Part shown: piece by piece, positions 1 to 11,205 of the stretch
How positions within the stretch are numbered: position 1 is the first letter of the stretch
How the letters are laid out: each line of letters opens with the position of its first letter
Virus record (IMG/VR): IMGVR_UViG_2711768052_000003
Span: 1-11,205 of that record
Source: a virus
Taxonomy: Duplodnaviria; Heunggongvirae; Uroviricota; Caudoviricetes
Length of the DNA stretch: 11,205 nt
Reading direction: 5' to 3' (one strand)
The notes under the pieces: generated by a model
The model's input: the letters and a program-made list of their open reading frames with translations, nothing else
Database searches by the model: none
What the model was told of the DNA's origin: nothing
Translations under genes and position numbers: made by a program

Positions 1-21
1 GTAAACCGAGGTTTTGGATAA
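1..21. other. Partial serine-invertase crossover site (gix/hix type), truncated by the window edge
   Basis: Positions 1-21 read GTAAACCGAGGTTTTGGATAA. This contains the half-site GGTTTTGGATAA and matches, as I recall it, the last 21 bp of the 26-bp Mu gixL site TTCCTGTAAACCGAGGTTTTGGATAA. It lies about 55 bp upstream of a Gin-family invertase gene, the usual position of the invertase-proximal site. Confidence 0.55.
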
Positions 22-75: not shown

Positions 76-675
76 GTGCTGATTGGCTATGTAAGGGTAT
101 CAACAAATGACCAGAATACAGACTTGCAACGAAACGCTCTTGTTTGTGCAGGATGCGAACAAATATTTGAAGATAAATTAAGCGGGACAAAGACAGACCG
201 ACCGGGATTAAAACGCGCTTTAAAGCGCCTTCAAAAAGGTGACACGCTGGTTGTCTGGAAACTGGATCGCCTCGGGCGAAGCATGAAACATCTGATTTCT
301 CTCGTCGGGGAACTACGGGAGCGAGGGATTAATTTTCGCAGTCTGACCGACAGCATAGATACATCTTCTCCAATGGGGCGTTTTTTCTTCCACGTGATGG
401 GTGCCCTGGCTGAAATGGAACGTGAATTAATTGTTGAACGTACACTGGCCGGACTGGCGGCAGCGCGCGCACGGGGGCGCACAGGCGGACGTCGACCGAA
501 GCTGACAAAAGAACAGCATGAGCAAATAGCAAGGCTAATCAAAAACGGGCACGACAGAAAACAACTGGCAATAATTTACGGCATTGGCACATCGACGATT
601 TATCGTTATCACCCTGTAGGCGATATACAGACTGAAGAAACAACCGGGCAGACTCAGGAAAATGAAAACCGCTAA
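76..675 (+). CDS. Site-specific serine DNA invertase, Gin/Pin/Hin/Cin family
   Basis: The translation MLIGYVRVSTNDQNTDLQRNAL...VVWKLDRLGRS...GINFRSLTDSIDTSS.MGRFFFHVMGALAEMERELI has the catalytic Ser at position 9, the resolvase/invertase core and a C-terminal HTH (IYGIGTSTIYRY). GGGAGA at 64-69 is a plausible RBS for GTG at 76. The track ORF begins at TTG 58, which I consider less likely. Confidence 0.9.
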   Translation: MLIGYVRVSTNDQNTDLQRNALVCAGCEQIFEDKLSGTKTDRPGLKRALKRLQKGDTLVVWKLDRLGRSMKHLISLVGELRERGINFRSLTDSIDTSSPMGRFFFHVMGALAEMERELIVERTLAGLAAARARGRTGGRRPKLTKEQHEQIARLIKNGHDRKQLAIIYGIGTSTIYRYHPVGDIQTEETTGQTQENENR

Positions 676-699
676 TCTGACCATTAGCGGTTTTTGTGT
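664..699. terminator. Bidirectional rho-independent terminator between the convergent invertase and gpU genes
   Basis: A 9-bp stem pairs ACCGCTAAT (668-676) with ATTAGCGGT (683-691) around the loop CTGACC. TTTTGTGT follows on the plus strand and an A-run (664-667) precedes it, giving a U-tract for the minus-strand transcript. It overlaps the invertase stop (673-675) and sits 5 bp from the gpU stop (704-706). Confidence 0.5.
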
Positions 700-703
700 A
701 AAA

Positions 704-1192
704 TCAGAACAGCCCTTTAACTGAACTGGCCGCGCTGTTAAGAGATGATGTCACCTTATCTTTGAAGCCGGACAGCATATCACTGAACGATGAGGATTGC
801 AGGCGCTCCCGCAAATCCTCATCACAGCGTTCAAGGGTCAGTGAAAATTCTATCTTTTTCGCCTTACCGTAGCGATCAAACTCGGAACGGGTCGTATTCG
901 TTTCAGTCAGCACATACATGCCGTAAATCTGCCCGACGCCATCAATCAGAGGCCAGGGTCGTCCTGTATACGCCTGCGTGGTCAGCAGCGACAGCGATAC
1001 TTCGCCACCTGTAATTTCAGGATAAAGCACACCAGAAAGAACGATGCGATCATCTCCTGCACCGATATACTGCCAGCTTGCTGAACGGTTAACGCGTTCA
1101 TTTTTCACATGCCGCCAGCTTTTGTTTTGCTGTAACTGCTGATGCGGCAGCGTGCGCAGCTCAAAAACAAACATGCCGTAGATCATCATCAT
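704..1192 (-). CDS. U: P2 gpU-like tail protein (tail terminator/completion)
   Basis: The translation MMMIYGMFVFELRTLPHQQL...WRH...VLSGVLYPEITGG...WPLIDGVGQIYGMYV fits the P2 gpU family pattern as I recall it. GAGGAG lies 8 nt upstream of ATG at 1192; the track start at 1198 would leave only a 2-nt spacer. Confidence 0.8.
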   Translation of the reverse strand: MMMIYGMFVFELRTLPHQQLQQNKSWRHVKNERVNRSASWQYIGAGDDRIVLSGVLYPEITGGEVSLSLLTTQAYTGRPWPLIDGVGQIYGMYVLTETNTTRSEFDRYGKAKKIEFSLTLERCDEDLRERLQSSSFSDMLSGFKDKVTSSLNSAASSVKGLF

Positions 1193-1204
1193 GGCCATGA
1201 CTCC

Positions 1205-4048
1205 TCAATCTTTATCGTAAAAACTGCCACGCCCGGCACGGGCGCGCCGTTCCATTTCTGCCCTGACCATTTCACCTACCAGTTTCGCAAGTTCGCGGGG
1301 ATTCTGCGTAACAACGTTATGCAGATGAACATGAATTTCACCGCCAAATCCGGAGGCAACCGGCTCCCGATTACGGGAAGCTGCAGGAACTGATGCCACT
1401 GGCGATCGTATGGCCTCCGCCACCGGGCGGGAGCTGGCCGCAACAACAGGGACCAGCGCCGGAGGCAGCGGAGCCGGGACCACGGGTGTGATATTAATTG
1501 CGGGGGCAGGCTTACTGACCTGCGCAATCTTCCGCTCCTGCCACTCCCCACGAACGGCAAGTGCGCGGGGCAGGTTCTTAAAGACAATATCGCCGGGGCC
1601 AATGCGTTTTTTCGTCTCATCAACCAGCTTACCTGTGTTATCAGCAATTTTGCTGAGTCTGCGCAGCGTACCGGTATTGCTGTCTGTGAGCGGTTTATTG
1701 TCTTTGGGGTTATCACCTCCGGTACCATTGCCATTTTCCACAGGCTTCGGCGGATTGATTTTCGCCAGGTCCCCCTGAAGCAAGGCAACCTTGTCCTGAA
1801 GAATGGCCGCACGCTGTGCGTCTTCGATTTTCTTGCGCGCCCTTTCCGCTTCATCCGGAAGGACGCCAAGTTTTTCAAGTATCCACGCCAGCGTATCCAG
1901 CAGCATTTTTGCAGGTGTCAGAACAAGCTGTAACGCACCGCCAAGAACGTTACCGAATATCTCGCCAGCACTGGTACATTTATCCAGCGTTTCCTTGCTG
2001 GACTCCATCGGTGACAGCAGCGATTTAAACCAGTTAAACACCTGGCTGATCCCGCTCCCGATTGCGTCAAAAACAGGACCAAACCGTTCAAAAGTTTCGC
2101 GCAACGGGGTCAGCCTTTCCATAATCCCGCTGAACACCCCGGCAAAAAATGCCCTGATGGGATCCCAGTATTTCCAGATAAGAACGGCAGCTCCGGCAAG
2201 CGCAGCCACGATAAGACCAACCGGACTGAACAACGCCCCGATAGCGCCTCCCAGCAAAGAAACGGACCCCGTCACCATTCCCCATAGTGCTGGCAGGACC
2301 CTGACAGCATTCATTGATCCGGTCAGGAGAGAAAAACCAAGACGCAGTTTTGCCAGCGGACCAGCAAGCACACCAATAGCCAGCGACAACGAGCCAACCG
2401 TTGCAGTCATTGCCAGCAACGCACCGCCTGCTATCAGTAGCTGGCGCGTCAGTGCCGGATGGGCCTGCGCCAGCGCCGTCACCCTTGATACCACCCGCGT
2501 GAGCCACTGCGTGACAGAACGCAGCGAACCGTCAATCAGATCTGCAATGCGGATGCGCAACCCTTCCCATGCACTGCCGAGTGATTTCAGATCGCCGTCA
2601 AGGTTGTTGGCCATAACCTTTGCTGTGCGTTCAGCCTCACCGCGCGCGCCTTCAAGTTCTTTTCTCAGTTTGGGTAAGGAACCGTCACCCGCTGCATCAA
2701 CGAGCGCCATAAACGATGTGAAAGCCTCTTCTCCGGCAATGTCCTTAAAGAACGATACCCGGTCAACTTCCCCGTATTTGCGGGTGGCTTTATAAAGGTC
2801 GGCCAGCACATCCTCCATCGGGCGCATTTTGCCCCCGGCATCCGAGACGGACACGCCCAGCTCTTTCAGAGCTTCTGCCGCCGCCTTTGGCGGTGATGCC
2901 AGACGAGCCAGGCTGGCACGCATTGCCGTCCCGGCATCACTCCCTCTGATGCCCATATTCGCCAGCACGCCAGCCATCGCTGCGGCCTGCTCCAGCGATA
3001 TTCCCAGCTTCCCCGCCACCGGACCTGCATATTTCATGGTTTCGCCCAGTGCGCGAAGGTCAGTGTTGGTACGGGTAAACGCTGCGGTGAGTGTGTCACC
3101 GACCCGGTCCATCTGGTCAGCAGAAAGGCCGAACTGCGTCAGGATATTTGAGCCAATATCTGCCGTCTCGCCGAGATCCATACCGCCAGCCGTTGCCATG
3201 CTCAGCACGCCGGGAAGCGCAGCCTGAATGGCCTGCGGAGTGAAGCCAGCCATTGCAAGAAATGCCTGTCCACTGGCGGCATCGCCTGCGGTGAACTGCG
3301 TTTCAGAGCCAAGTTTTAACGCCTGCTCGCGCAGCGCTTTAAACTGCGGGCTGTTCTGGTCGATTCGCGTCAGTGCCTGAACGCGGGACATCTCTTTGCC
3401 GAACCCGATCGCAGGCTGCAAAAAACGCCCGGCAGCATAGCCGCCCGCCGCTGCCGCACCAATTGCCAGCGCACCACCTGTTTTCAGTTTTTCCGCTGTT
3501 TCCTGCGCGCGCGAATACCGCTCACGCGCCCGCGTTACACGCGCAAGCGCCTGCCGTTCGCGTTCAAGCTGGTTGTTGTATTGTTCGGTGCGTCTGATGG
3601 CCTGCTGGATGGTGTTATCGCTGCCTGTCAGGGAAATGCCGTGGCGTTTCAGCTCTCCGCCAAGCTCCCGCATTTTCTGAATTTCCCGTGTGCGCGATTC
3701 ATTCAGGCGTTCAAGCCGGGTGCTTAACTGCTGCATCAGCTTTTGTTGTTTTTCGCTGAGCACTGTACCCGTGCGTTGTAACTGATTAAGGGCGTTAAGC
3801 TGGCGTCGTGCTTTCACGATACCCGCATCCGCTTTACTGACAGCGTCGCGGGCGCGCTCAAATGAACGCGCCTGACGCTCGAGATTTTTGATCGCCCCCT
3901 GCGTTCGCTGGATGGAGTCACCAAACTGCCCCATCAGGCGGCGTGCGTTTTCGGCAGGTCGGGTCAGCCTGTCAACGGCGCTGAAAGCGACCCGGATATC
4001 AAGAGTCTTCATTGTCTGCATTCCCGCTGCGAAGTGCCGCCCGCTCAC
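1205..4048 (-). CDS. T: Tail tape measure protein (P2 gpT-like)
   Basis: A 947-aa ORF with an Ala/Gly/Leu/Arg-rich, coiled-coil-like N-terminal half (repeated ERxRxA, QQL motifs) and a central hydrophobic segment sits between the E/E' chaperone genes and gpU. The start is uncertain: GTG at 4048, or ATG at 4021 or 4012. Confidence 0.8.
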   Translation of the reverse strand: MSGRHFAAGMQTMKTLDIRVAFSAVDRLTRPAENARRLMGQFGDSIQRTQGAIKNLERQARSFERARDAVSKADAGIVKARRQLNALNQLQRTGTVLSEKQQKLMQQLSTRLERLNESRTREIQKMRELGGELKRHGISLTGSDNTIQQAIRRTEQYNNQLERERQALARVTRARERYSRAQETAEKLKTGGALAIGAAAAGGYAAGRFLQPAIGFGKEMSRVQALTRIDQNSPQFKALREQALKLGSETQFTAGDAASGQAFLAMAGFTPQAIQAALPGVLSMATAGGMDLGETADIGSNILTQFGLSADQMDRVGDTLTAAFTRTNTDLRALGETMKYAGPVAGKLGISLEQAAAMAGVLANMGIRGSDAGTAMRASLARLASPPKAAAEALKELGVSVSDAGGKMRPMEDVLADLYKATRKYGEVDRVSFFKDIAGEEAFTSFMALVDAAGDGSLPKLRKELEGARGEAERTAKVMANNLDGDLKSLGSAWEGLRIRIADLIDGSLRSVTQWLTRVVSRVTALAQAHPALTRQLLIAGGALLAMTATVGSLSLAIGVLAGPLAKLRLGFSLLTGSMNAVRVLPALWGMVTGSVSLLGGAIGALFSPVGLIVAALAGAAVLIWKYWDPIRAFFAGVFSGIMERLTPLRETFERFGPVFDAIGSGISQVFNWFKSLLSPMESSKETLDKCTSAGEIFGNVLGGALQLVLTPAKMLLDTLAWILEKLGVLPDEAERARKKIEDAQRAAILQDKVALLQGDLAKINPPKPVENGNGTGGDNPKDNKPLTDSNTGTLRRLSKIADNTGKLVDETKKRIGPGDIVFKNLPRALAVRGEWQERKIAQVSKPAPAINITPVVPAPLPPALVPVVAASSRPVAEAIRSPVASVPAASRNREPVASGFGGEIHVHLHNVVTQNPRELAKLVGEMVRAEMERRARAGRGSFYDKD

Positions 4049-4528
4049 GCCAGCTAACCACTTCGCCGGGCGTCATCATGAAGATTTCGGCGGGCGACCA
4101 GTTAAAAATAACGGCAATATCTGCCACAAAGTCTTCTATGTGCTCAAAGCACACAACCGTGATCAGGCTTCCGTCGCCTGTTCGTTCTTCCCGCCAGAGT
4201 CCGCACCGCTCAAAAAATTTACGGCAACCACACATAACTGAATAAAGTCACGGGATGCCATTTTTTTGATCGTCACTTCATCCAGTCGCGGTGATGTCAC
4301 GCGTGACAGCAGCGTAAACATGGATTCCGCTTTCAGACTCAGCACATCAGACAGCGACAAATCTCGCAGAGATCCAGCCTGCTCAATAGCCCCGGTGATC
4401 TCCACATACGTGATTTTTTCGCCGCTTCGCTCAATTGGTTGGGTAAGTTTTACGCCACGCTCACTGGTTTCTTTCACAGTGTCAGTAACTACCGTGTTTT
4501 CGGTATCGATGTTTTTCGTCTCTTTCAT
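3999..4528 (-). CDS. E+E' fusion chaperone made by programmed -1 frameshift (inferred)
   Basis: The minus-strand slippery heptamer TTTTTTG (plus coordinates 4217-4211) lies inside E. The -1 frame stays open from there to 3999 (track ORF 3999-4235 is in the -1 frame relative to E) and overlaps the T start, as in the P2 E/E' and lambda G/GT arrangements. Confidence 0.55.
4163..4528 (-). CDS. E: Tail assembly chaperone gpE-like (short product)
   Basis: A 121-aa ORF lies between FII and T, the position of P2 E. AAAGGAG sits 7 nt upstream of ATG at 4528. A TTTTTTG slippery heptamer lies 18 codons before its stop. Confidence 0.75.
   Translation of the reverse strand: MKETKNIDTENTVVTDTVKETSERGVKLTQPIERSGEKITYVEITGAIEQAGSLRDLSLSDVLSLKAESMFTLLSRVTSPRLDEVTIKKMASRDFIQLCVVAVNFLSGADSGGKNEQATEA
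4211..4217 (-). other. T6G slippery heptamer for the E to E' -1 ribosomal frameshift
   Basis: The plus strand reads CAAAAAA at 4211-4217, which is TTTTTTG on the coding (minus) strand. Frame arithmetic places the downstream open frame at -1. Confidence 0.55.
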
Positions 4529-4582
4529 CAGGAAACTCCTTTCAGTCAGAGGCGACGCACTGCGCCGCCTGCATATTACTTA

Positions 4583-5095
4583 TCAGCCAAGCCCAAGCGC
4601 GGAACGGATGCGATCGGGCACAATGTCCTTGCCGTCCTTCCGGTAAATGAAGTTCAGCAGGTCAATCTCCCACAACGGGCGATCGTTAACACTCAGCTTG
4701 TAGTAGGTGTTTTTAATGGCATAAGTGTGTGATGTGGCTTCGCCCTGTTTGGCTTCCCCCATATCAATTTCCGTCACACGTCCGCGCATTTCGACTTCAT
4801 ACAGGTCGCTTTCTGCATCGGTGTAGTATTCACCCGCAAAACGCAGCAGTGTGCCGTCAATCGTGCCGCCATACTTAAGGAACAGCTCACGAACTGCGCC
4901 CCCCATGACAAAGCTCGCATCAAGCGCTGAGTCGTCCAGGCCGAGATCAATACTTACCGCCCCCATCATGCCACCACCCCGGTAGCTGTCGGTTTTGCGC
5001 GTCAGCTTAGGCAAAGTGACGGACGTCACCTTACCCACTTCGTTTTCACCATCCACAAACAGCGTAAAAAAGCGAAGATGTTTTGGCACAGCCAT
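4583..5095 (-). CDS. FII: Tail tube protein (P2 gpFII-like)
   Basis: A 170-aa ORF, MAVPKHLRFF...VTLPKLTRK...YRGGGM...IDLGLDD...LRFAGEY...VEMRGR...EIDMGE, has the size and motifs of the FII tube family. GGGAGG RBS precedes it, and its ATG overlaps the FI stop as TGATG (plus 5093-5097). Confidence 0.9.
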   Translation of the reverse strand: MAVPKHLRFFTLFVDGENEVGKVTSVTLPKLTRKTDSYRGGGMMGAVSIDLGLDDSALDASFVMGGAVRELFLKYGGTIDGTLLRFAGEYYTDAESDLYEVEMRGRVTEIDMGEAKQGEATSHTYAIKNTYYKLSVNDRPLWEIDLLNFIYRKDGKDIVPDRIRSALGLG

Positions 5096-6279
5096 CAGGC
5101 ACCTCCCAGCACCGCAAATGCGGGTTCAAAGTATTCATCAGTAAACGTCTGGTAAAGCTCCATGTCTTCCAGTGGCGGAACGGGCGTATATTTGTAGCGA
5201 ATACGCACACGCCCCTGACGTAAATCCGTGGTGCTGTTATCCACCACGTCATACCAGCACTCCGCGCCAATCAGTTTCCCGGCAGTCACCAGTGAATCCA
5301 GTTTTGCCCTGATGGCGCTGATAACATCCTTCACGTTCGCAGGCGTCAGTGGACTGTCGATGGTTTCAAACTGCGCTTCCGCAATTGAATCAGCCAGCAC
5401 CTGTGCGGTTCGGGTATACACCTCAAAAATGTAGGCGTTCGTTTCCGGTGTGCGGTTGCCCCAGAAGCGGAACCCGTTGCGACGAATAATGGTCGTGATT
5501 TCTTTGTTGTTGAGGCTGTTGGCATCGCTGTCTTCGGCCTGCAACGACCAGAACACATGCCTCGACATCCCCAGCACATTTTTAACCGGAACGTTGGACA
5601 GCGATTTGTGCCAGCCCTGCTCATGGTCAATGTACGCACGAAGGCCGCACGCATAAGCAGGCGCGGGGAACGTTTCGTTTTCGCCACTTTTCGGGTTGTA
5701 GGCGATGAAGTCCGGCCATAAGAGCATCACTTCACGTTCGTTGAATTTCTGGCGGTAGGTAATCGCTTCAGCCATCGTGTTACAGCCGTGACATGAGGCA
5801 TACACAAATGCGCGCAGTTTACCCGCAATCACGCACAGGGATTTTGTCACCGCCTCCGTGTCCAGCTCCGGCGCGGCCAGAATACGCGGACGGTATCCGA
5901 TGCTTTCATCCTGCTCTGCAACAAGCAGCGCATACATCCCCGTATAGCTGCCGTCATCCTCAGAACCACCGATAACCAGTTGATCCTGCGTCTTTTCGTC
6001 TTCTTCTTTGTGTTCAGCCACGCGAACGACGATCACCTTTGTGCTCACCTGGTCTGCGATGGCCTTAAGCGCACGATAAAGCGTCCCCGTTGTTCCGCAT
6101 TTTCCCAGCACGTCATTGACGCGGGTCAGCAGTGTGGGCTTGTTCAGCGGGAACAGCTTCGCGTCCGCATCATCCGCCGTTGCCACGATACCGATAACGC
6201 TGGAATCAACATCGTTAATCGCTGTTACCAGGTCGGTATTTTCCGTAACACGGGCACCATGAAAACGAGTTTCACTCAT
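5095..6279 (-). CDS. FI: Contractile tail sheath protein (P2 gpFI-like)
   Basis: A 394-aa ORF has motifs that match P2 FI as I recall it: FPLNKP, LRAFVYAS, WPDF, EQGWHKSLSNV, IRRNGFRFWGNRT, YTRTAQV and YKYTPVPPLE. AAGGGG RBS lies 8 nt upstream of ATG at 6279. Confidence 0.9.
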   Translation of the reverse strand: MSETRFHGARVTENTDLVTAINDVDSSVIGIVATADDADAKLFPLNKPTLLTRVNDVLGKCGTTGTLYRALKAIADQVSTKVIVVRVAEHKEEDEKTQDQLVIGGSEDDGSYTGMYALLVAEQDESIGYRPRILAAPELDTEAVTKSLCVIAGKLRAFVYASCHGCNTMAEAITYRQKFNEREVMLLWPDFIAYNPKSGENETFPAPAYACGLRAYIDHEQGWHKSLSNVPVKNVLGMSRHVFWSLQAEDSDANSLNNKEITTIIRRNGFRFWGNRTPETNAYIFEVYTRTAQVLADSIAEAQFETIDSPLTPANVKDVISAIRAKLDSLVTAGKLIGAECWYDVVDNSTTDLRQGRVRIRYKYTPVPPLEDMELYQTFTDEYFEPAFAVLGGA

Positions 6280-6436
6280 AGCTTCAGCCCCTTGTATCCG
6301 TTAAATGATTCGGCAACAATCATCACCCACCACGCGCGTAATCTCACCCCTGCGCCGTTCTCCCGCCACGGCGACAACAAAAAGCAGTAACCCCCTCCGC
6401 ACGCACATGCGACCATGCCACACAGGGAGGGAGCAG

Positions 6437-7546
6437 ATGACCGACACCACCATGCAATTGCTCAGTCAGGGCACAGACCCCGTGAAAATGCCGGATTTTG
6501 ATATTCTCGCCGAGGGTAAAACGCTGTCCGGCGTGGCAGAACGCCTGATGAGCCTGTCACTGACCGACAACCGGGGATTTGAGGCGGACCAGCTCACCAT
6601 CACGCTGGATGATGCCGATGGCCAGTTGCAGCTACCGCCACGGGGCGCGCGTCTGACGGTTCTCATTGGCTGGAAAGGGGAACCGCTGACAGAAAAAGGC
6701 ACTTACATTGTTGATGAAATCGCTCACGAAGGACCGCCGGACAGGCTGACTGTTTCAGCCAGAAGCGCAGATTTTCGGGATGAATTTAACGTTAAACGTG
6801 AGGTGTCCTGGCATGATGTGACCGTTGAGCGTGTGGTATCCGCCATCGCTCATCGGTATGGTCTGAAACCGCAAATCAGCGAAATGCTGATGGATATCGA
6901 AATCGACCACGCCGACCAGACCGAAGAAAGCGACATGTCCTTCCTTACGCGCATGGCGGAAATGCTGGGCGCAATCACCACGGTAAAAAGCGGTAATCTG
7001 TTATTCATCATGCCCGGAGGTGGCGTGAACGCGCAGGGCCAGCCGTTGCCCTCGTTCGCCATCACACGCAGCAGCGGCGATCGCCATCAGTTCCGCATTG
7101 CTGACCGCGAGGCGTATACGGGTGTACGCGCCTACTGGCTTGATCTTAATTACGGGAAAAAGAAAAAAGTCAGCGTGAAACGCCGCAAACCGCCAAAACC
7201 CAAAAAGGAGAAAAGCAGCAGCCGCGAAGGTGACTATATGGAAGGTGCGGAAGGCAACGTATTTGTGTTACGCAAGACTTATCAGAACGAGCAGGCAGCA
7301 AGACGCGCAGCGGCGGCAAAGTGGCAGCAGCTACAACGCGGAGCCGCATCATTTTCCATCACGCTGGCACGTGGACGCGCAGAACTCTACCCCGAAATGC
7401 ATGGCACGGTAACAGGATTTAAAAGCGAGATTGATAATCAGGACTGGATTATTGCAAAAGCCGAGCACACCATTGATAACAGCGGCTTTACCACGCAGCT
7501 TGAGCTTGAGGCAAAAATCCCGGAATGGATAGCAGAAACAGAGTGA
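6437..7546 (+). CDS. D: P2 gpD-like tail/baseplate hub protein (late control gene D family)
   Basis: The translation MTDTTMQLL...SLSLTDNRGFEADQLTITLDDADG...RSADFR...SWHD...FLTRMAE...ITRSSGDRHQFRIADREAYTGV...KKKK...EGDYMEGAEGNVF...QRGAASFSITLARGRAELYPE...FTTQLELEA agrees closely with my recollection of P2 gpD. GGGAGGGA RBS lies at 6425-6432. The track ORF extends to 6305 but has no RBS-supported start there. Confidence 0.85.
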   Translation: MTDTTMQLLSQGTDPVKMPDFDILAEGKTLSGVAERLMSLSLTDNRGFEADQLTITLDDADGQLQLPPRGARLTVLIGWKGEPLTEKGTYIVDEIAHEGPPDRLTVSARSADFRDEFNVKREVSWHDVTVERVVSAIAHRYGLKPQISEMLMDIEIDHADQTEESDMSFLTRMAEMLGAITTVKSGNLLFIMPGGGVNAQGQPLPSFAITRSSGDRHQFRIADREAYTGVRAYWLDLNYGKKKKVSVKRRKPPKPKKEKSSSREGDYMEGAEGNVFVLRKTYQNEQAARRAAAAKWQQLQRGAASFSITLARGRAELYPEMHGTVTGFKSEIDNQDWIIAKAEHTIDNSGFTTQLELEAKIPEWIAETE

Positions 7547-7934
7547 GCAATTTTGATACATTAGATTAAACATGGGCGCAACACTTACGACACAGAGTAA
7601 ACCTGATCTGCCAGTCACTTCTGCACCAAGAGCGAAAATTTATGACAGCGCTATGTGTTTATCTCCCCGAAAAGCTCAGTCAAATAGTAATTTGTCAAAT
7701 CCCCACTCAGTATCAATAGAGATAGTTGACCGAGTGTGCTCAAAGCCATACCTGCCACGATGAGCTTTGCATAACAGACTTGTTTTTTTAGGTGATTTTC
7801 GTTATAAATTTTCAGCGTTGCTTAGATGTTATGTGTTTATGCTCAATATGCAAATTTTGAGTTTTTTGTGGCTATATTATAACATTAATAGCAACATCTC
7901 TATGATTGCTTTATTTAAATGGATGAATTTGAAA

Positions 7935-10037
7935 ATGAGAGCATATCATAATGACCAACCTATACTAGGCGGTCAAAATGATCCAGACTTACTAAATAGA
8001 CTTACCTTTGCAAATAATTTGGCAAATATTTTACTATTAAATAACGACGATGATTGTTTCACTGTATCTATAGAGGCTGAGTGGGGATATGGTAAAACGT
8101 CAGTCATAAATCTTATAAAAAATGCCTTAAATGAAAAGGACTCCTTACCCATTATAATAGAATATAATCCATGGTTGGCTGGCCAACCTGAATCCTTGAT
8201 TCAAGATTTTTTATTGCAGTTTTCTTCACAACTAAATATTAAAGACAAATCAAAAGTTGCATTAAAAGTATCAAAAGAGCTAATTGCATACTCTAGCCTC
8301 TTTAGTGCTGCTAAACTTATCCCTGGAGCAGAACCATGGGCATCTATCATAGAAAAATCTCTTTCAAGATTTGGACATGCTACTAAAAAAATAGCTGAGT
8401 TAAAAAAACTTGATCTTTTAGATAGAAAAAAACAAGTGGCTAATGCGATAAAAAAAATAAAACATCCTATAATTGTAATAATTGATGACATTGATCGTTT
8501 AACACCCTCTGAGGCTTTTCAAGTTTTACGGTTAGTCAAAGCTGTTGCGAATTTCTCAGGCACTTCTTTTTTACTTGCATTTGATCCTAATTACCTAATT
8601 TCTGTGCTTGATAAAAATAACATTATAAATCCGTCAGAATATATTAATAAGATTGTTCAACTTCGAGTTTCACTTCCCGTAATTTCAGAAAGAGGACTGA
8701 ATGAAATCGCAAATTCAGAGCTTGAAAAACTAGGTGATAGTTTTTTAACTGATAAATTTGAAAAAGATCAAGAAAGATTAGATTGGATTTACCATAATTA
8801 TTTCAAGCAATTAATTAATAATCCAAGAGAGTTGAAAAGGTTTTTCAACCACTTGAGATTTACTTTAGAGCAAATTAAAGGTCAGGTGTGTTCTTCAGAT
8901 CTTTTTTCTTTATCTCTAATCGCAACCAAATCAAATTTAATTTATGAGCATATAAAGAATACTCCTGAAGCGTACATTGGGAATAGATTAACCATCAATA
9001 ATTTGTTAATGAATAAACATCAAGATATTATAAAGCATTATAGCCATGAACGATGCAATAAACTAAATATTTTTTCTCAACGAGAACGTACATTGATGCA
9101 GGGGCTATTAGAGTATATTTTCCCTCTTCTACGCCCCAATCAATCTTATCCTTATGATGTATCTGATTCAGATGCAGCAGGAAGAATTTCTGCCCCCCAA
9201 AGACTTCATATTGCCCTTCATTTTAAAACTCCAGTAGGATATATTTCCGATCATGACATTCTTCTTTTCATCGAAGGGAAAATTAATAGAGAAAAATTCC
9301 TTGAGGATGTGTTATCTCAAAATGCCGAGGAAAGATTTTTCGAAATGATGAATATTTATACAGACGCTTGTTGTAAAGTTGATAGTTTTAATATATTAAC
9401 GTGCATTTATGATAGATTTCTTTTCTCTCAAGAGTTAAAATCTTCATTAGAAAAAAACTATGGTCTCATTAGAGAAGATTCTTATAGAAGGATGTATTGG
9501 CTCACTGATAAAATTATATCTGAAAGTAGTGAGCAATATGAGCTAATAAAAAAAATTATTGGTCGATATGAGAATGCGCCACTTGGAGCAGAAGTACTAT
9601 ACAACGTACGAAACTCAAGTAATATACAGATTAATAAAGATCAGATTGTTGAACTTGAGAATGTCTTCAAAGAAACAGCTACTATTGCTTTAAATAAAAA
9701 AATATTTTTTGACTATCATCTAGAATCAAATATATTTTTCGAATTAAAGAGAATCTCTGTTGAATTCACATCAGAATTTCTTGCTTCCATCTTATCAGAA
9801 GATGGCATAATTAGATTGTGTGAAATTATTGGTGAAACTGGTAGAGATTCAACGAATGGCCCTTATGTTATTTTTGACGAACATTATTTTGGGGAAATAC
9901 TTGATGTAGATGAGGTTAGAAATAAAGCTAAAAACATAGATATTTCAAAGCATCCGACTCGCATTCAAGCTGTACTTAAGAGCATTGCAGATGGAAAAAA
10001 ATATTATTTAAGAGATGCAACAATTAGCTTAAAATAG
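7935..10037 (+). CDS. KAP-family P-loop NTPase; candidate anti-phage/exclusion protein
   Basis: Walker A is AEWGYGKTS (8082-8102), followed by the KAP-typical NPW (IIIEYNPW), Walker B IIVIIDDIDRL (8472-8501), LLAFD, and an NPRELKRFFN motif (8820-8849). About 300 C-terminal residues carry no motif I recognise. The gene is strongly AT-rich against GC-rich flanks. The start is ambiguous: in-frame ATGs at 7902, 7923 and 7935, none with a strong SD (GGA 9 nt before 7935); the track ORF begins at TTG 7767. Confidence 0.7.
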   Translation: MRAYHNDQPILGGQNDPDLLNRLTFANNLANILLLNNDDDCFTVSIEAEWGYGKTSVINLIKNALNEKDSLPIIIEYNPWLAGQPESLIQDFLLQFSSQLNIKDKSKVALKVSKELIAYSSLFSAAKLIPGAEPWASIIEKSLSRFGHATKKIAELKKLDLLDRKKQVANAIKKIKHPIIVIIDDIDRLTPSEAFQVLRLVKAVANFSGTSFLLAFDPNYLISVLDKNNIINPSEYINKIVQLRVSLPVISERGLNEIANSELEKLGDSFLTDKFEKDQERLDWIYHNYFKQLINNPRELKRFFNHLRFTLEQIKGQVCSSDLFSLSLIATKSNLIYEHIKNTPEAYIGNRLTINNLLMNKHQDIIKHYSHERCNKLNIFSQRERTLMQGLLEYIFPLLRPNQSYPYDVSDSDAAGRISAPQRLHIALHFKTPVGYISDHDILLFIEGKINREKFLEDVLSQNAEERFFEMMNIYTDACCKVDSFNILTCIYDRFLFSQELKSSLEKNYGLIREDSYRRMYWLTDKIISESSEQYELIKKIIGRYENAPLGAEVLYNVRNSSNIQINKDQIVELENVFKETATIALNKKIFFDYHLESNIFFELKRISVEFTSEFLASILSEDGIIRLCEIIGETGRDSTNGPYVIFDEHYFGEILDVDEVRNKAKNIDISKHPTRIQAVLKSIADGKKYYLRDATISLK

Positions 10038-10262
10038 TGATAACAGGTGATTTATTTTATTATTTGAAGTGATGAAATATACTCTTCACTACATTTAATG
10101 CACTGATTATCAAATAGAGATAGGTGTCGCATGAAAGAGACTATTGATGTGGCACCGGTAGTCTCATTTCCGACATTACTCCAGAAGAGGTGATTCGTTA
10201 TTAATAGATAATTTTAACCACTTCGCTAGACGTATCATTTTTCGTTTGTTGCTCAAAACTCA

Positions 10263-10291
10263 TTGGCAGTTAAAGTCTGAACCAGTACAAC
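10263..10291 (+). promoter_or_regulatory. Putative sigma70-type promoter for ogr
   Basis: TTGGCA (10263-10268), a 17-bp spacer, then TACAAC (10286-10291), about 40 bp upstream of the ogr ATG. This is a by-eye match only. Confidence 0.25.
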
Positions 10292-10328
10292 TTAGAATGG
10301 CACCAACATTACGTTAAGGGAGGTCGCT

Positions 10329-10589
10329 ATGTTCCGTTGTCCGCTTTGTGGCGCATCTGCCCGTATCCGCACCAGTCGTCCGGAAAATGATTCAAACACC
10401 GTGCGGCAAAAGTATTACCAGTGTAACAATCTGGAATGCGGCGTATGCTTCTCAACACTGGAAGCTTTCCATAAATTCACATCGAAACACGCCTCCGGCG
10501 TTCACTCTTCAGAAGGTATCCCGTGGCATGAGCTGCCAGCTTCACACAGGGGAAACAATCAGATGAGTTTGCCTTTGCCTCAGAATTAA
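10329..10589 (+). CDS. ogr: Ogr/Delta-family zinc-finger late transcription activator
   Basis: The N-terminus MFRCPLCGASARIRTSR...YYQCNNLECGVCFSTLE has the CxxC...CxxxxC arrangement and resembles P2 Ogr as I recall it (MFHCPLC...RTSR...YHQC.N..C...F). AAGGGAGG RBS lies at 10316-10323. Confidence 0.85.
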   Translation: MFRCPLCGASARIRTSRPENDSNTVRQKYYQCNNLECGVCFSTLEAFHKFTSKHASGVHSSEGIPWHELPASHRGNNQMSLPLPQN

Positions 10590-10649: not shown

Positions 10650-10862
10650 ATGGTCGGAGGGAATACCCGAAGGCCAGATGTGGAAAGGCCCCGGAAAACA
10701 TCTCTGTTTAACCGAGGCCCTAACCGCATTACCTTGACAAGTGAAAGGTTAGCGCCTCTCCGGAAAAGGAGCAAGTGCTATGTCGCAAAAATCGCTTACG
10801 GCCATCACGTTCTGTGTGACGGCAATCCTCATCATCTGGATGTTGCACGGTTCGCTGTGTGA
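10650..10862 (+). CDS. Possible mok-like overlapping leader ORF of the hok locus
   Basis: A 70-codon frame from ATG 10650 overlaps the 5' two-thirds of the hok-like ORF in another frame and ends inside it, as mok does in hok/sok loci. It has no strong SD, and the track ORF begins at TTG 10599. Confidence 0.3.
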   Translation: MVGGNTRRPDVERPRKTSLFNRGPNRITLTSERLAPLRKRSKCYVAKIAYGHHVLCDGNPHHLDVARFAV

Positions 10863-10920
10863 AATACGGATGAGCTTCTGGGGAGCGGAGTTTGCGGCGT
10901 TCTTACAGTGTAAGCAGTAA
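10780..10920 (+). CDS. Hok/Gef-family type I toxin (small membrane peptide)
   Basis: A 46-aa ORF, MSQKSLTAITFCVTAILIIWMLHGSLCEIRMSFWGAEFAAFLQCKQ, has an N-terminal hydrophobic helix and the SLCEIR...E.AAF motif, which aligns without gaps to Hok (…[21 protein letters not shown]…) and HokA as I recall them. AAAGGAG RBS at 10765-10771. It is below the length cutoff of the supplied ORF track. Confidence 0.7.
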   Translation: MSQKSLTAITFCVTAILIIWMLHGSLCEIRMSFWGAEFAAFLQCKQ

Positions 10921-11008
10921 GGAAACCGCGACGGGGGAGCTATCCCCCGTCAATCGGTTGCCAAGGTAGGGCCGGATAAGGCACCCTATCTCACAGATAT
11001 GAACAACA

Positions 11009-11041
11009 AACCCGCAGCGTAAAAACTGCGGGTTTTCTTTT
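11009..11041 (+). terminator. Rho-independent terminator, likely the 3' end of the hok-like transcript
   Basis: Stem ACCCGCAG (11009-11016), loop CGTAAAAA, stem CTGCGGGT (11025-11032), followed by TTTCTTTTT. Confidence 0.55.
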
Positions 11042-11205
11042 TGGTGCCCTCACCGACTTGAAACAGTGATCAGACTATAAGACAAAGCCCGCAATGTAGC
11101 GGGCTTACTCCCCTCACCCTACACTGAATGTGGACACACAGTGGAACGAAGAGGCATAAGATATTATAAATCAATCAGTTATTGAAAGAAAAAAGGCCGC
11201 AGAGC

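What the first reader, a model, noticed from the sequence alone, without database searches (positions are those of the whole stretch)
704..6436. Tail block FI-FII-E/E'-T-U is inverted relative to D and ogr, next to a Gin-family invertase
In P2, as I recall the map, FI, FII, E/E', T, U, D and ogr are colinear and D is co-transcribed after U. Here FI to U run on the minus strand while D and ogr run on the plus strand, so U is convergent with the invertase gene (stops 28 bp apart) and FI is divergent from D (157 bp apart). Reading 6280-6436 by eye, I found no TGT-N12-ACA Ogr/Delta-type activator site on either side of that interval, so neither FI nor D has an obvious late promoter in this arrangement. 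This could be an in-place inversion, possibly invertase-mediated at a pseudo-site, that disconnects the late operon and leaves a defective prophage or domesticated tail cluster. It could equally be the normal layout of a lineage I do not know.
Basis: partly seen in the sequence, partly recalled or inferred. Interest (0 to 1): 0.6.

Follow-up and report, generated by a model that had tools for sequence, protein, structure and literature searches.

The report
Normal P88-type phage tail gene layout
The tail-gene block really is flipped compared with phage P2, but this is the fixed, normal gene order of a large group of working P88-like phages, not damage caused by the neighbouring invertase, so the finding is ordinary.

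Summary
U-T-E/E'-FII-FI lie on the minus strand (704-6279). The Gin-type invertase, D and ogr lie on the plus strand. The gaps are 28 bp (invertase/U) and 157 bp (FI/D).

The proposed defect is not supported. The same layout, at 95-97% identity, is found in phage P88, which is mitomycin-inducible, forms plaques and has a contractile tail. It is also found in Citrobacter phiSM and other Xuanwuvirus phages. It appears in every sufficiently long locus among 127 related loci from about 20 genera (D 61-100% identical), and most of those have no adjacent invertase. The FI/D junction is present in 1357 of 5426 complete E. coli genomes. The hypothetical flipped junction is present in none.

No gix-like site or inverted repeat marks the breakpoints. 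The invertase's real substrate is the tail-fibre segment, whose right gix site is window 1-21.

The FI/D gap does carry a late-promoter signal. It is a one-mismatch Ogr-type dyad, GTTCT-N12-ACAAC (6357-6378). Fifteen relatives have a perfect TGT-N12-ACA at the same position, and -10-like hexamers lie about 46 nt to each side. This matches the geometry of P2's shared pP/pO site.

The real ogr is at 10329-10589, after a low-GC PifA-like insert.

The parts
1..21 (+). Right gix recombination site of the invertible tail-fibre segment, cut by the window edge. This is the invertase's real substrate.
   Evidence: It is the only match in the window at up to 3 mismatches. P88 has the equivalent site at 26902-26922 and an inverted partner at 23826-23846 inside the fibre gene. 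The Mu record annotates the matching stretch as 'G-segment boundary'.
76..675 (+). Gin/Hin-family serine DNA invertase. The ORF is open from TTG 58; the likely start is GTG 76 (MLIGYV...).
   Evidence: Pfam Resolvase E 1.5e-50 plus HTH_7 E 4e-13. It is 92-97% identical in DNA to the gin genes of Mu and D108. The phiSM annotation corresponds to window 76-675.
665..694 (.). Bidirectional intrinsic terminator hairpin shared by the convergent invertase gene and the F (FI..U) operon.
   Evidence: 12-bp stem with U-runs on both strands. Free energy is -17.1 and -16.9 kcal/mol, z -4.4 and -4.3. It is retained in PhiR44_2, which lacks the invertase; that match starts at window 617.
704..1198 (-). Tail protein U.
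   Evidence: Pfam Phage_P2_GpU E 5.5e-39. 99% identical to P88.
1205..4012 (-). Tape measure protein T. The start is taken by analogy with the P88 annotation; the ORF stays open up to GTG 4048.
   Evidence: Pfam PhageMin_Tail E 3.7e-58. P88 coordinates with offset 26896. Sequence.
3999..4217 (-). E' extension, reached by a -1 frameshift at the slippery TTTTTTG (4217-4211).
   Evidence: Sequence and translations. P88 and PhiR44_2 annotate a GpE-family ORF here. The P2 record annotates a -1 frameshift for E+E'.
4163..4528 (-). Tail assembly chaperone E.
   Evidence: 100% identical to P88 E and 31% to P2 E by tblastn. It has no Pfam hit.
4583..5095 (-). Tail tube protein FII.
   Evidence: Pfam Phage_tube E 7.5e-47.
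5095..6279 (-). Tail sheath protein FI.
   Evidence: Pfam sheath domains. 99% identical to P88.
6319..6324 (-). Predicted -10 hexamer (GATGAT on the minus strand) of the leftward late promoter for FI..U. The predicted start is near 6312.
   Evidence: A conserved block ATaaTC lies 43.5-48.5 nt left of the dyad centre in 45 unique related intergenic regions. Inference only; no transcript data.
6357..6378 (.). Ogr/Delta-type activator dyad GTTCT-N12-ACAAC (TcT-N12-ACA, one mismatch), centre 6367.5. It is proposed to serve both divergent late promoters.
   Evidence: It is the only exact match in the window. The same 10-base dyad lies in the P88 P/O gap. The best dyad match is at the same position (70-80 nt from the FI ATG) in all 45 related intergenic regions, with an invariant right half, a free spacer, and a perfect GTTGT-N12-ACAAC in 15. 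P2 annotates one shared site for pP/pO.
6411..6416 (+). Predicted -10 hexamer (GACCAT) of the rightward late promoter for D. The predicted start is near 6423, followed by the SD GGGAGGGAG at 6425-6433.
   Evidence: A conserved block aAxcaT lies 43.5-48.5 nt right of the dyad centre in relatives. Sequence. Inference only.
6437..7546 (+). Tail/baseplate hub protein D, intact at 369 aa.
   Evidence: Pfam Phage_GPD E 3e-17. 99% identical to P88 D over its full length, and 49% to P2 D.
7547..10328 (+). Low-GC (about 31%) cargo insert between D and ogr. It holds a PifA-like KAP P-loop NTPase (7767-10037) and a doubtful 63-aa ORF (7572-7763). It is not part of the tail block.
   Evidence: GC profile. 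Pfam KAP_NTPase E 7e-47. PADLOC PifA E 1.1e-64. The insert is absent from P88, which accounts for the 74% coverage.
10329..10589 (+). The real ogr gene (late activator, Cys4 zinc finger).
   Evidence: Pfam Ogr_Delta E 5e-14. CX2CX24CX4C motif. 99-100% identical to the ORF that directly follows D in P88, phiSM and PhiR44_2.

Best explanation
The window is the right-hand end of a P88-like (genus Xuanwuvirus, Peduoviridae) prophage in its normal gene order. An ancestor of this clade inverted the FI-FII-E/E'-T-U block once, long ago, and the arrangement has been fixed ever since. It is not a switch and not damage. The Gin-type invertase is an optional neighbour. Its job is to flip the tail-fibre segment on its other side, whose right gix site is window 1-21.

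The proposed way late expression works in this layout is an inference. One Ogr-type dyad (6357-6378) sits in the middle of the 157-bp FI/D gap and activates two back-to-back late promoters. One runs leftward into FI..U, starting near 6312 and ending at the bidirectional hairpin 665-694. The other runs rightward into D, starting near 6423, and possibly on into ogr. This is the same design P2 uses for its divergent pP/pO pair.

Shown here: the layout, its distribution, the absence of the alternative orientation, the function of relatives, and the conservation of the dyad and the -10 blocks. Inferred: Ogr binding, the transcription start sites, and any read-through into ogr.
For: Identical layout in characterised phages:
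- The layout is the same at 95-97% DNA identity in P88, phiSM, P884B11, 500465-2, PhiR44_2 and Chuche.
- P88 is mitomycin-inducible, forms plaques, has a burst size of about 65 and a contractile 137-nm tail (PMC5285337).
- phiSM is a functional temperate phage (PMC6456863).

Distribution of the layout:
- Every sufficiently long locus shows U- T- E- FII- FI- D+ Ogr+. This covers 47 genome loci from about 20 Enterobacterales genera and 80 IMG/VR contigs, with D 61-100% identical.
- An adjacent invertase is present in only 22 of 99 loci that extend beyond U.
- P2, 186 and phiCTX are colinear, so the inversion is derived and old.
- The FI/D junction is present in 1357 of 5426 complete E. coli genomes, the invertase/U junction in 622, and the hypothetical flipped junction in 0.

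Intact genes:
- All tail genes in the window are full length and 98-100% identical to those of P88. The E/E' slippery site is present.

Late promoter signal:
- GTTCT-N12-ACAAC occurs exactly three times in P88, against about 0.07 expected from base counts (my own estimate). Two of the three lie in the only two divergent late-gene gaps, P/O and FI/D.
- In 45 unique related FI/D gaps the dyad stays 70-80 nt from the FI ATG. The right half GACAACAAA is invariant, the spacer is unconstrained, and 15 have a perfect TGT-N12-ACA.
- Conserved -10-like hexamers lie 43.5-48.5 nt on each side of the dyad centre.
- The P2 record annotates one activator site for both pO and pP, with starts 55.5 nt to each side.

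Activator and terminator:
- An Ogr homologue with four cysteines is encoded at 10329-10589.
- The terminator hairpin is strong in both directions.
Against: - No transcript, footprint or reporter data exist for this lineage. The promoter model rests on sequence conservation and analogy.
- The window's dyad departs from the TGT-N12-ACA consensus at one of the six core positions. The proposed -10 hexamers (GATGAT, GACCAT) are weak, and the predicted D leader is short at about 14 nt.
- The dyad pattern was derived post hoc from two P88 gaps. A third exact copy in P88 lies inside gene T.
- Only the right end of the prophage is in the window. Heads, replication genes and the rest of this particular prophage could still be damaged.
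- In the closest full-length E. coli match (strain 100181, 96.8% identical), D is annotated as a shortened CDS, so some copies of the family do decay.
Confidence: 0.85

Rival explanations
1. A recent in-place inversion of the FI..U block, catalysed by the adjacent Gin-type invertase at pseudo-gix sites. It cuts the late operon off from its promoter and leaves a defective prophage.
For: An invertase gene does abut the block. The block is inverted relative to P2, 186 and phiCTX. There is no exact TGT-N12-ACA in the FI/D gap.
Against: Inducible, plaque-forming P88 has the same layout. The layout is present in 77 of 99 related loci without an adjacent invertase, down to 61% D identity. PhiR44_2 has the layout and no invertase. 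The only gix-like sequence in the window is at 1-21. The breakpoint regions share no inverted repeat beyond chance: the longest exact match is 7 nt, and 7 nt or more was reached in 268 of 300 shuffles. None of 5426 E. coli genomes holds the flipped junction. A conserved dyad and -10 elements lie in the gap.
Confidence: 0.02
2. A domesticated tail cluster (R-type tailocin) or decaying prophage remnant that merely resembles P88.
For: Only tail, regulatory and cargo genes are visible in the window. The family is very common in E. coli chromosomes, and some copies carry IS elements or a shortened D.
Against: All tail genes, ogr and the frameshift site are intact and 98-100% identical to those of a functional phage. 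The nearest full-coverage genome match lies in a prophage that has replication, portal, terminase, capsid and lysis genes. The gix site and invertase for fibre switching are retained.
Confidence: 0.05
3. The layout is normal, but D is not driven by a shared Ogr dyad. FI uses the dyad alone, and D and ogr are transcribed from an independent promoter, such as a sigma-70 early or middle promoter like P2's own ogr promoter.
For: The generic sigma-70 scan finds no match in the gap, so nothing excludes an unconventional promoter. In P2, ogr has its own promoter. The predicted D leader is short, and GACCAT is a poor -10.
Against: The rightward block TG.aA.caT is conserved at a fixed distance (+40.5 to +48.5) from the dyad centre across genera, while surrounding bases vary. 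It mirrors the leftward block. It also resembles P2 pO's GAAACT at the same offset. P2 already uses one site for two divergent promoters.
Confidence: 0.12
4. Assembly artefact: the block was mis-oriented during assembly.
For: None found.
Against: Both junctions recur in hundreds to over a thousand independent complete genomes and in several phage genomes sequenced from virions.
Confidence: 0.01

Closest known systems
Escherichia phage P88 (Xuanwuvirus P88, Peduoviridae; NC_026014) and its relatives Citrobacter phage phiSM, P884B11, 500465-2, PhiR44_2 and Chuche
   Same: The gene order and strands are the same: invertase(+), U-T-E'-E-FII-FI(-), D(+), ogr(+), hok-like. DNA identity is 95-97% over the shared 74% of the window. 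The FI/D gap is the same 157 bp and carries the same dyad.
   Different: The window carries a 2.8-kb low-GC PifA-like insert between D and ogr that P88 lacks. PhiR44_2 and Chuche lack the invertase.
Bacteriophage P2 late region (FI-FII-E/E'-T-U-D-ogr; promoters pP, pO, pV, pF)
   Same: The gene set is homologous (D 49%, FI 46%, U 46% identical). The E/E' TTTTTTG frameshift is shared, as is the Ogr-type Cys4 activator. The dyad belongs to the same family, GTTGT-N12-CCAAC/CCATC. P2's divergent pP/pO pair shares one activator site with starts 55.5 nt to each side.
   Different: In P2 the block is colinear with D, and D is the last gene of the F operon. Here FI..U is inverted, D is separated and heads its own unit, and the shared-dyad design appears a second time at FI/D.
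Mu gin / G-segment (and the P1 cin, e14 pin and Salmonella hin systems)
   Same: The invertase gene is 92-97% identical in DNA to the gin genes of Mu and D108. A gix site lies just upstream. In P88 a 3-kb segment with two alternative fibre ends and assembly genes lies between inverted gix sites.
   Different: The tail block FI..U is not bounded by gix sites and is not a substrate. The invertase sits in a P2-type rather than a Mu-type genome.

Membership tests
P2-type (Peduoviridae) contractile tail module | Sheath FI, tube FII, chaperone E with -1 frameshift product E', tape measure T, U, D and an Ogr/Delta activator are all present. | tested here: met
   Pfam hits for FI, FII, T, U, D and Ogr. 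E is identified by homology. The slippery TTTTTTG and the E' frame are present.
P2-type (Peduoviridae) contractile tail module | P2 map order: FI..U colinear with D and co-transcribed with it from pF. | tested here: not met
   FI..U are on the minus strand and D on the plus strand. This is a feature of P2, 186 and phiCTX, not of the whole family.
Genus Xuanwuvirus (P88-like phages) | High nucleotide identity and shared gene order with P88. | tested here: met
   97.2% identity over 74% of the window, colinear apart from the cargo insert. Only the right end of the prophage is in the window, so genome-wide identity is not testable.
Gin/Hin/Cin/Pin serine invertases | Resolvase catalytic domain plus C-terminal HTH, with an adjacent gix/hix-type site. 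| tested here: met
   Pfam PF00239 and PF02796. A gix site lies at 1-21, and its inverted partner is present in P88.
Invertase-controlled invertible segment (as a description of the FI..U block) | Inverted recombination sites at both ends of the segment. | tested here: not met
   No gix-like sequence lies at 676-703 or 6280-6436. There is no inverted repeat beyond chance.
Invertase-controlled invertible segment (as a description of the FI..U block) | Both orientations found among closely related genomes or within a population. | tested here: not met
   0 of 5426 E. coli genomes hold the flipped junction, against 622 and 1357 for the native junctions. All 127 related loci show one orientation. 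Within-population reads are not available.
Ogr/Delta/B-dependent late promoters | A dyad of the TGT-N12-ACA type centred about 55 nt upstream of the start. | tested here: inconclusive
   The window has TcT-N12-ACA at 6359-6376, one mismatch. Relatives have perfect sites at the same position. The -10-like blocks lie at the distance expected for starts about 55 nt away. The start sites themselves are not mapped.
Ogr/Delta/B-dependent late promoters | A cognate Cys4 zinc-finger activator is encoded by the element. | tested here: met
   PF04606 E 5e-14. CX2CX24CX4C, against CX2CX22CX4C in P2 Ogr (PMC3931495).
Ogr/Delta/B-dependent late promoters | Transcription depends on the activator. | not testable with these tools
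   Needs reporter fusions or RNA mapping.
R-type tailocin / domesticated tail cluster | Tail and lysis genes without head, packaging, replication or integration genes. | tested here: not met
   For the relatives, P88 and the strain 100181 prophage carry full head, packaging and replication sets. For this window's own prophage, the upstream part is not available.

The most novel reading that the evidence does not exclude
In the whole P88-type clade a single Ogr dyad in the FI/D gap drives two back-to-back late promoters, giving a second copy of the P2 pP/pO design. The ancient inversion thereby detached D (and, by read-through, ogr and any cargo inserted between them) from the 6-kb F operon. 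The result would be a short D-ogr late transcript that could give faster positive feedback on Ogr. In the E. coli branch it would also create a late-transcribed slot in which defence cargo such as the PifA-like gene accumulates.
Probability: 0.45. Interest if true: 0.3.

Novelty: already known. Interest (0 to 1): 0.15.

Why it matters
It matters mainly as a correction. The P2 reference map should not be used to call this widespread prophage family 'rearranged' or 'defective'. About a quarter of complete E. coli genomes carry its FI/D junction. The inverted tail block is the family's native order.

Two modest points are new. First, late expression of FI..U and of D is probably organised around one shared activator site, re-using the pP/pO design of P2. 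This is easy to test. Second, the D-ogr gap in the E. coli branch is a cargo slot that holds different defence-type genes in different strains.

Tried and rejected
- A search for inverted repeats across the whole window and between the two breakpoint regions found nothing above chance.
- A search for gix cores (AAACCNNGGTTT at up to 2 mismatches, and the 21-nt gix at up to 3) found only the site at 1-21. The count for the short core equals the chance expectation.
- The exact TGT-N12-ACA scan found only two hits, both inside the low-GC cargo and at chance frequency.
- The generic sigma-70 scan found nothing in the FI/D gap. The total of 15 sites against 13 expected is uninformative, as expected for activator-dependent promoters.
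- Rfam at gathering thresholds gave no hit anywhere, including the hok-like region.
- I took the 63-aa ORF after D as a candidate ogr and rejected it. It has no Pfam hit and no cysteine motif.
- I looked for a P2-like pV site upstream of the R-S-V genes in P88 and found none by eye. I did not pursue whether this lineage lacks pV.
- Literature searches for 'Xuanwuvirus', and a search of the P88 paper for any mention of an inversion or gene order, found nothing. Nobody seems to have commented on the layout.
- The first attempt to fetch the E. coli context failed on size. Two paper queries failed on syntax.
Full report
**What is in the window**

ORF listing and Pfam give the following order.
- A Gin-type serine invertase lies on the plus strand. 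The ORF runs 58-675, and the likely start is GTG 76.
- Five tail genes follow on the minus strand: U (704-1198), tape measure T (1205-4012/4048), E (4163-4528), tube FII (4583-5095) and sheath FI (5095-6279).
- D follows on the plus strand (6437-7546).

E has no Pfam hit, but it is 100% identical to P88 E. It carries the P2-type slippery heptamer TTTTTTG (4217-4211, minus strand), which leads into an E' frame.

One correction is needed on ogr. The 63-aa ORF just after D (7572-7763) has no family hit and no cysteine motif. The real Ogr/Delta zinc-finger gene is 10329-10589 (PF04606 E 5e-14; CX2CX24CX4C). It is separated from D by a 2.8-kb insert of about 31% GC. That insert encodes a KAP P-loop NTPase resembling PifA (PADLOC E 1.1e-64).

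**Is the block inverted relative to P2?**

Yes. The annotated records of P2, 186 and Pseudomonas phage phiCTX represent three genera of Peduoviridae. All three have FI-FII-E-T-U-D on one strand. The colinear order is therefore the likely ancestral state, and the order here is derived.

**Is it a defect?**

No. Megablast against phage records shows the same arrangement at 95-97% identity in several phages: Escherichia phage P88, Citrobacter phage phiSM, Xuanwuvirus P884B11, and phages 500465-2, PhiR44_2 and Chuche.

The P88 record reads as follows:
- invertase (+) 26977-27564
- U (-) 27600-28094
- T, E', E, FII
- FI (-) up to 33175
- D (+) from 33333

The spacings are the same as in the window. 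P88 was induced with mitomycin C, forms plaques, has a burst size of about 65 and shows a contractile 137-nm tail in electron microscopy (PMC5285337). phiSM is described as a fully functional temperate phage that lysogenises K-12 strains (PMC6456863). All tail genes in the window are full length and 98-100% identical to those of P88.

**How wide is the layout, and does it depend on the invertase?**

A search with the D protein returned 47 loci from about 20 Enterobacterales genera, among them Salmonella, Edwardsiella, Serratia, Erwinia, Pantoea, Klebsiella, Brenneria and Pectobacterium. D identity was 65-99%. A search with a D alignment returned 80 IMG/VR viral contigs with D 61-100% identical.

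I placed the eight window proteins on every locus by tblastn. Every locus long enough shows U- T- E- FII- FI- then D+ Ogr+, and there was not one exception. An adjacent Gin-type invertase is present in only 22 of 99 loci that extend at least 900 nt beyond U. PhiR44_2 has G(+) directly convergent with U(-) and no invertase. The inversion is therefore an old, fixed trait of a large clade and is independent of the invertase.

**Is it a switch?**

No evidence supports that.
- The only gix-like sequence in the window is at 1-21. In P88 the equivalent site pairs with an inverted partner inside the tail-fibre gene. Together they bracket a 3-kb segment with alternative fibre ends and assembly genes. 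That segment is the invertase's substrate, as in Mu.
- The two breakpoint regions share no inverted repeat beyond chance. The longest exact match is 7 nt, and 268 of 300 shuffles did at least as well.
- Among 5426 complete E. coli genomes, the native FI/D junction is covered at 80% or more in 1357 and the native invertase/U junction in 622.
- I built a synthetic junction representing the flipped state, with the invertase end joined to the FI start. It is covered in none.

The same numbers exclude a mis-assembly.

**How are FI and D expressed?**

But the gap contains GTTCT-N12-ACAAC at 6357-6378, that is TcT-N12-ACA, and this is the only exact match in the window. In P88 this 10-base pattern occurs exactly three times. 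From base counts I would expect about 0.07. One copy is in the FI/D gap, one is in the gap between the divergent terminase (P) and scaffold (O) genes, and one is inside T.

P2's own sites belong to the same family and have the same spacing. They are GTTGT-N12-CCAAC at pF and GTTGT-N12-CCATC at pP/pO. So a one-base departure from the textbook consensus (PMC3931495) is normal.

I extracted the FI/D gaps of the relatives, which gave 45 unique sequences. In every one the best dyad match lies 70-80 nt from the FI start codon. The right half GACAACAAA is invariant and the 12-nt spacer varies freely. Fifteen have a perfect GTTGT-N12-ACAAC.

Anchoring all the sequences on the dyad reveals two more conserved blocks placed symmetrically:
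- ATaaTC lies 43.5-48.5 nt to the left. It reads GATTAT toward FI. In the window it is GATGAT at 6319-6324.
- aAxcaT lies 43.5-48.5 nt to the right, toward D. In the window it is GACCAT at 6411-6416.

These are the positions expected for -10 elements of promoters that start about 55 nt from the dyad centre. The P2 record annotates a single 'activator binding site; pO, pP promoters', with starts at 3016 (-) and 3127 (+). Each lies 55.5 nt from the centre of its dyad.

My reading is that the clade re-used this design. One Ogr dyad serves a leftward promoter for FI..U, with a predicted start near 6312 and a 33-nt leader. It also serves a rightward promoter for D, with a predicted start near 6423 and the SD GGGAGGGAG at 6425-6433. 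This step is inference from conservation and analogy. No transcripts were available.

**The other junction**

The 28-bp invertase/U gap, with the last bases of the invertase gene, forms a 12-bp hairpin (665-694) with U-runs on both strands. Free energy is -17.1 and -16.9 kcal/mol, z about -4.4. It is a bidirectional terminator for the convergent units. It is kept in PhiR44_2 even though the invertase gene is gone. That fits a role as the terminator of the F operon.

**Context**

The closest full-coverage E. coli match is strain 100181, at 96.8% identity. It places the equivalent region at the right end of a complete-looking prophage that abuts ihfA. That prophage carries genes for the replication endonuclease, ParM, portal, terminase, capsid, lysis, baseplate and invertible fibres, then this region, then hok/gef. 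The upstream part of this window's own prophage is not available, so its completeness cannot be shown.

**Comparison with what is known, and verdict**

The window is a member of the P88-type phages (genus Xuanwuvirus). The layout is visible in deposited, annotated genomes of working phages, although I found no paper that remarks on it. The invertase is a standard Gin-family enzyme with a standard fibre-switching role.

The only mildly new points are the inferred shared-dyad pF/pD promoter and the D-ogr cargo slot. The D-to-ogr gap is 51 bp at the median in 128 loci, but it holds 1.0-4.0 kb inserts in 13 loci of the E. coli branch. GmrSD, HxsB/HxsC, DUF3800 or the PifA-like gene occupy that position in different genomes.

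The finding is real as an observation, ordinary in meaning, and low in interest.

Noticed in passing
window 7547-10328: A low-GC (about 31%) insert lies between D and the real ogr. It encodes a KAP P-loop NTPase that matches the PifA model of PADLOC over its N-terminal half (E 1.1e-64). The D-ogr gap is 51 bp at the median in 128 related loci. It holds 1.0-4.0 kb inserts in 13 loci, all from the E. coli P88 branch. In other E. coli genomes the same slot holds GmrSD, HxsB/HxsC or DUF3800 genes, so it is a cargo or defence hotspot.
   Followed up: partly
window 7572-7763 and 10329-10589: The small ORF directly after D is not ogr. It has no Pfam hit and no Cys4 motif. The true Ogr/Delta gene is 2.8 kb further on and has a CX2CX24CX4C motif, two residues longer in the loop than P2 Ogr.
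   Followed up: yes
window 1-21; L001 23826-23846 and 26902-26922: The window starts inside the right gix site of a Mu-like invertible tail-fibre segment. P88 has the two inverted gix sites 3 kb apart, around alternative fibre C-termini and assembly genes.
   Followed up: yes
window 10781-10921: A Hok/Gef-type small toxin ORF follows ogr. It is annotated as such in P88 and in strain 100181. Rfam found no hok/sok RNA at gathering score.
   Followed up: partly
L001 28823-28844 (minus); window 1927-1948: A third exact GTTCT-N12-ACAAC dyad in P88 lies inside the tape measure gene. The window copy has one mismatch. It could be chance or an internal late promoter.
   Followed up: no
L001 18978-19116 and 20208: In P88 the S and V homologues overlap, and I saw no dyad upstream of the R-S-V genes. 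This lineage may lack a separate pV promoter and run on two bidirectional late promoter regions only.
   Followed up: no
L134 25701-26554: In E. coli strain 100181, the closest full-coverage match, D is annotated as a shortened 801-nt CDS next to a pseudogene fragment. D may be damaged in that copy, though it is intact in the window.
   Followed up: no
L006, L047: Contigs labelled Vagococcus sp. WN89Y and Planococcaceae UBA3378 carry D genes 98-99% identical to this enterobacterial prophage. This is most likely contamination of those assemblies.
   Followed up: no
window 11008-11106: Two strong terminator-like hairpins (11008-11035, bidirectional; 11085-11106) lie at the prophage's right end, just before the position of ihfA in strain 100181. 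The attR site should lie nearby.
   Followed up: no
L133 3963-3988 (phage 186 record 12962-12987): The 186 record annotates a 'Mu-like inversion crossover site' inside its tail-fibre gene although 186 has no invertase. This is a relic showing that fibre-inversion modules come and go in this family.
   Followed up: no
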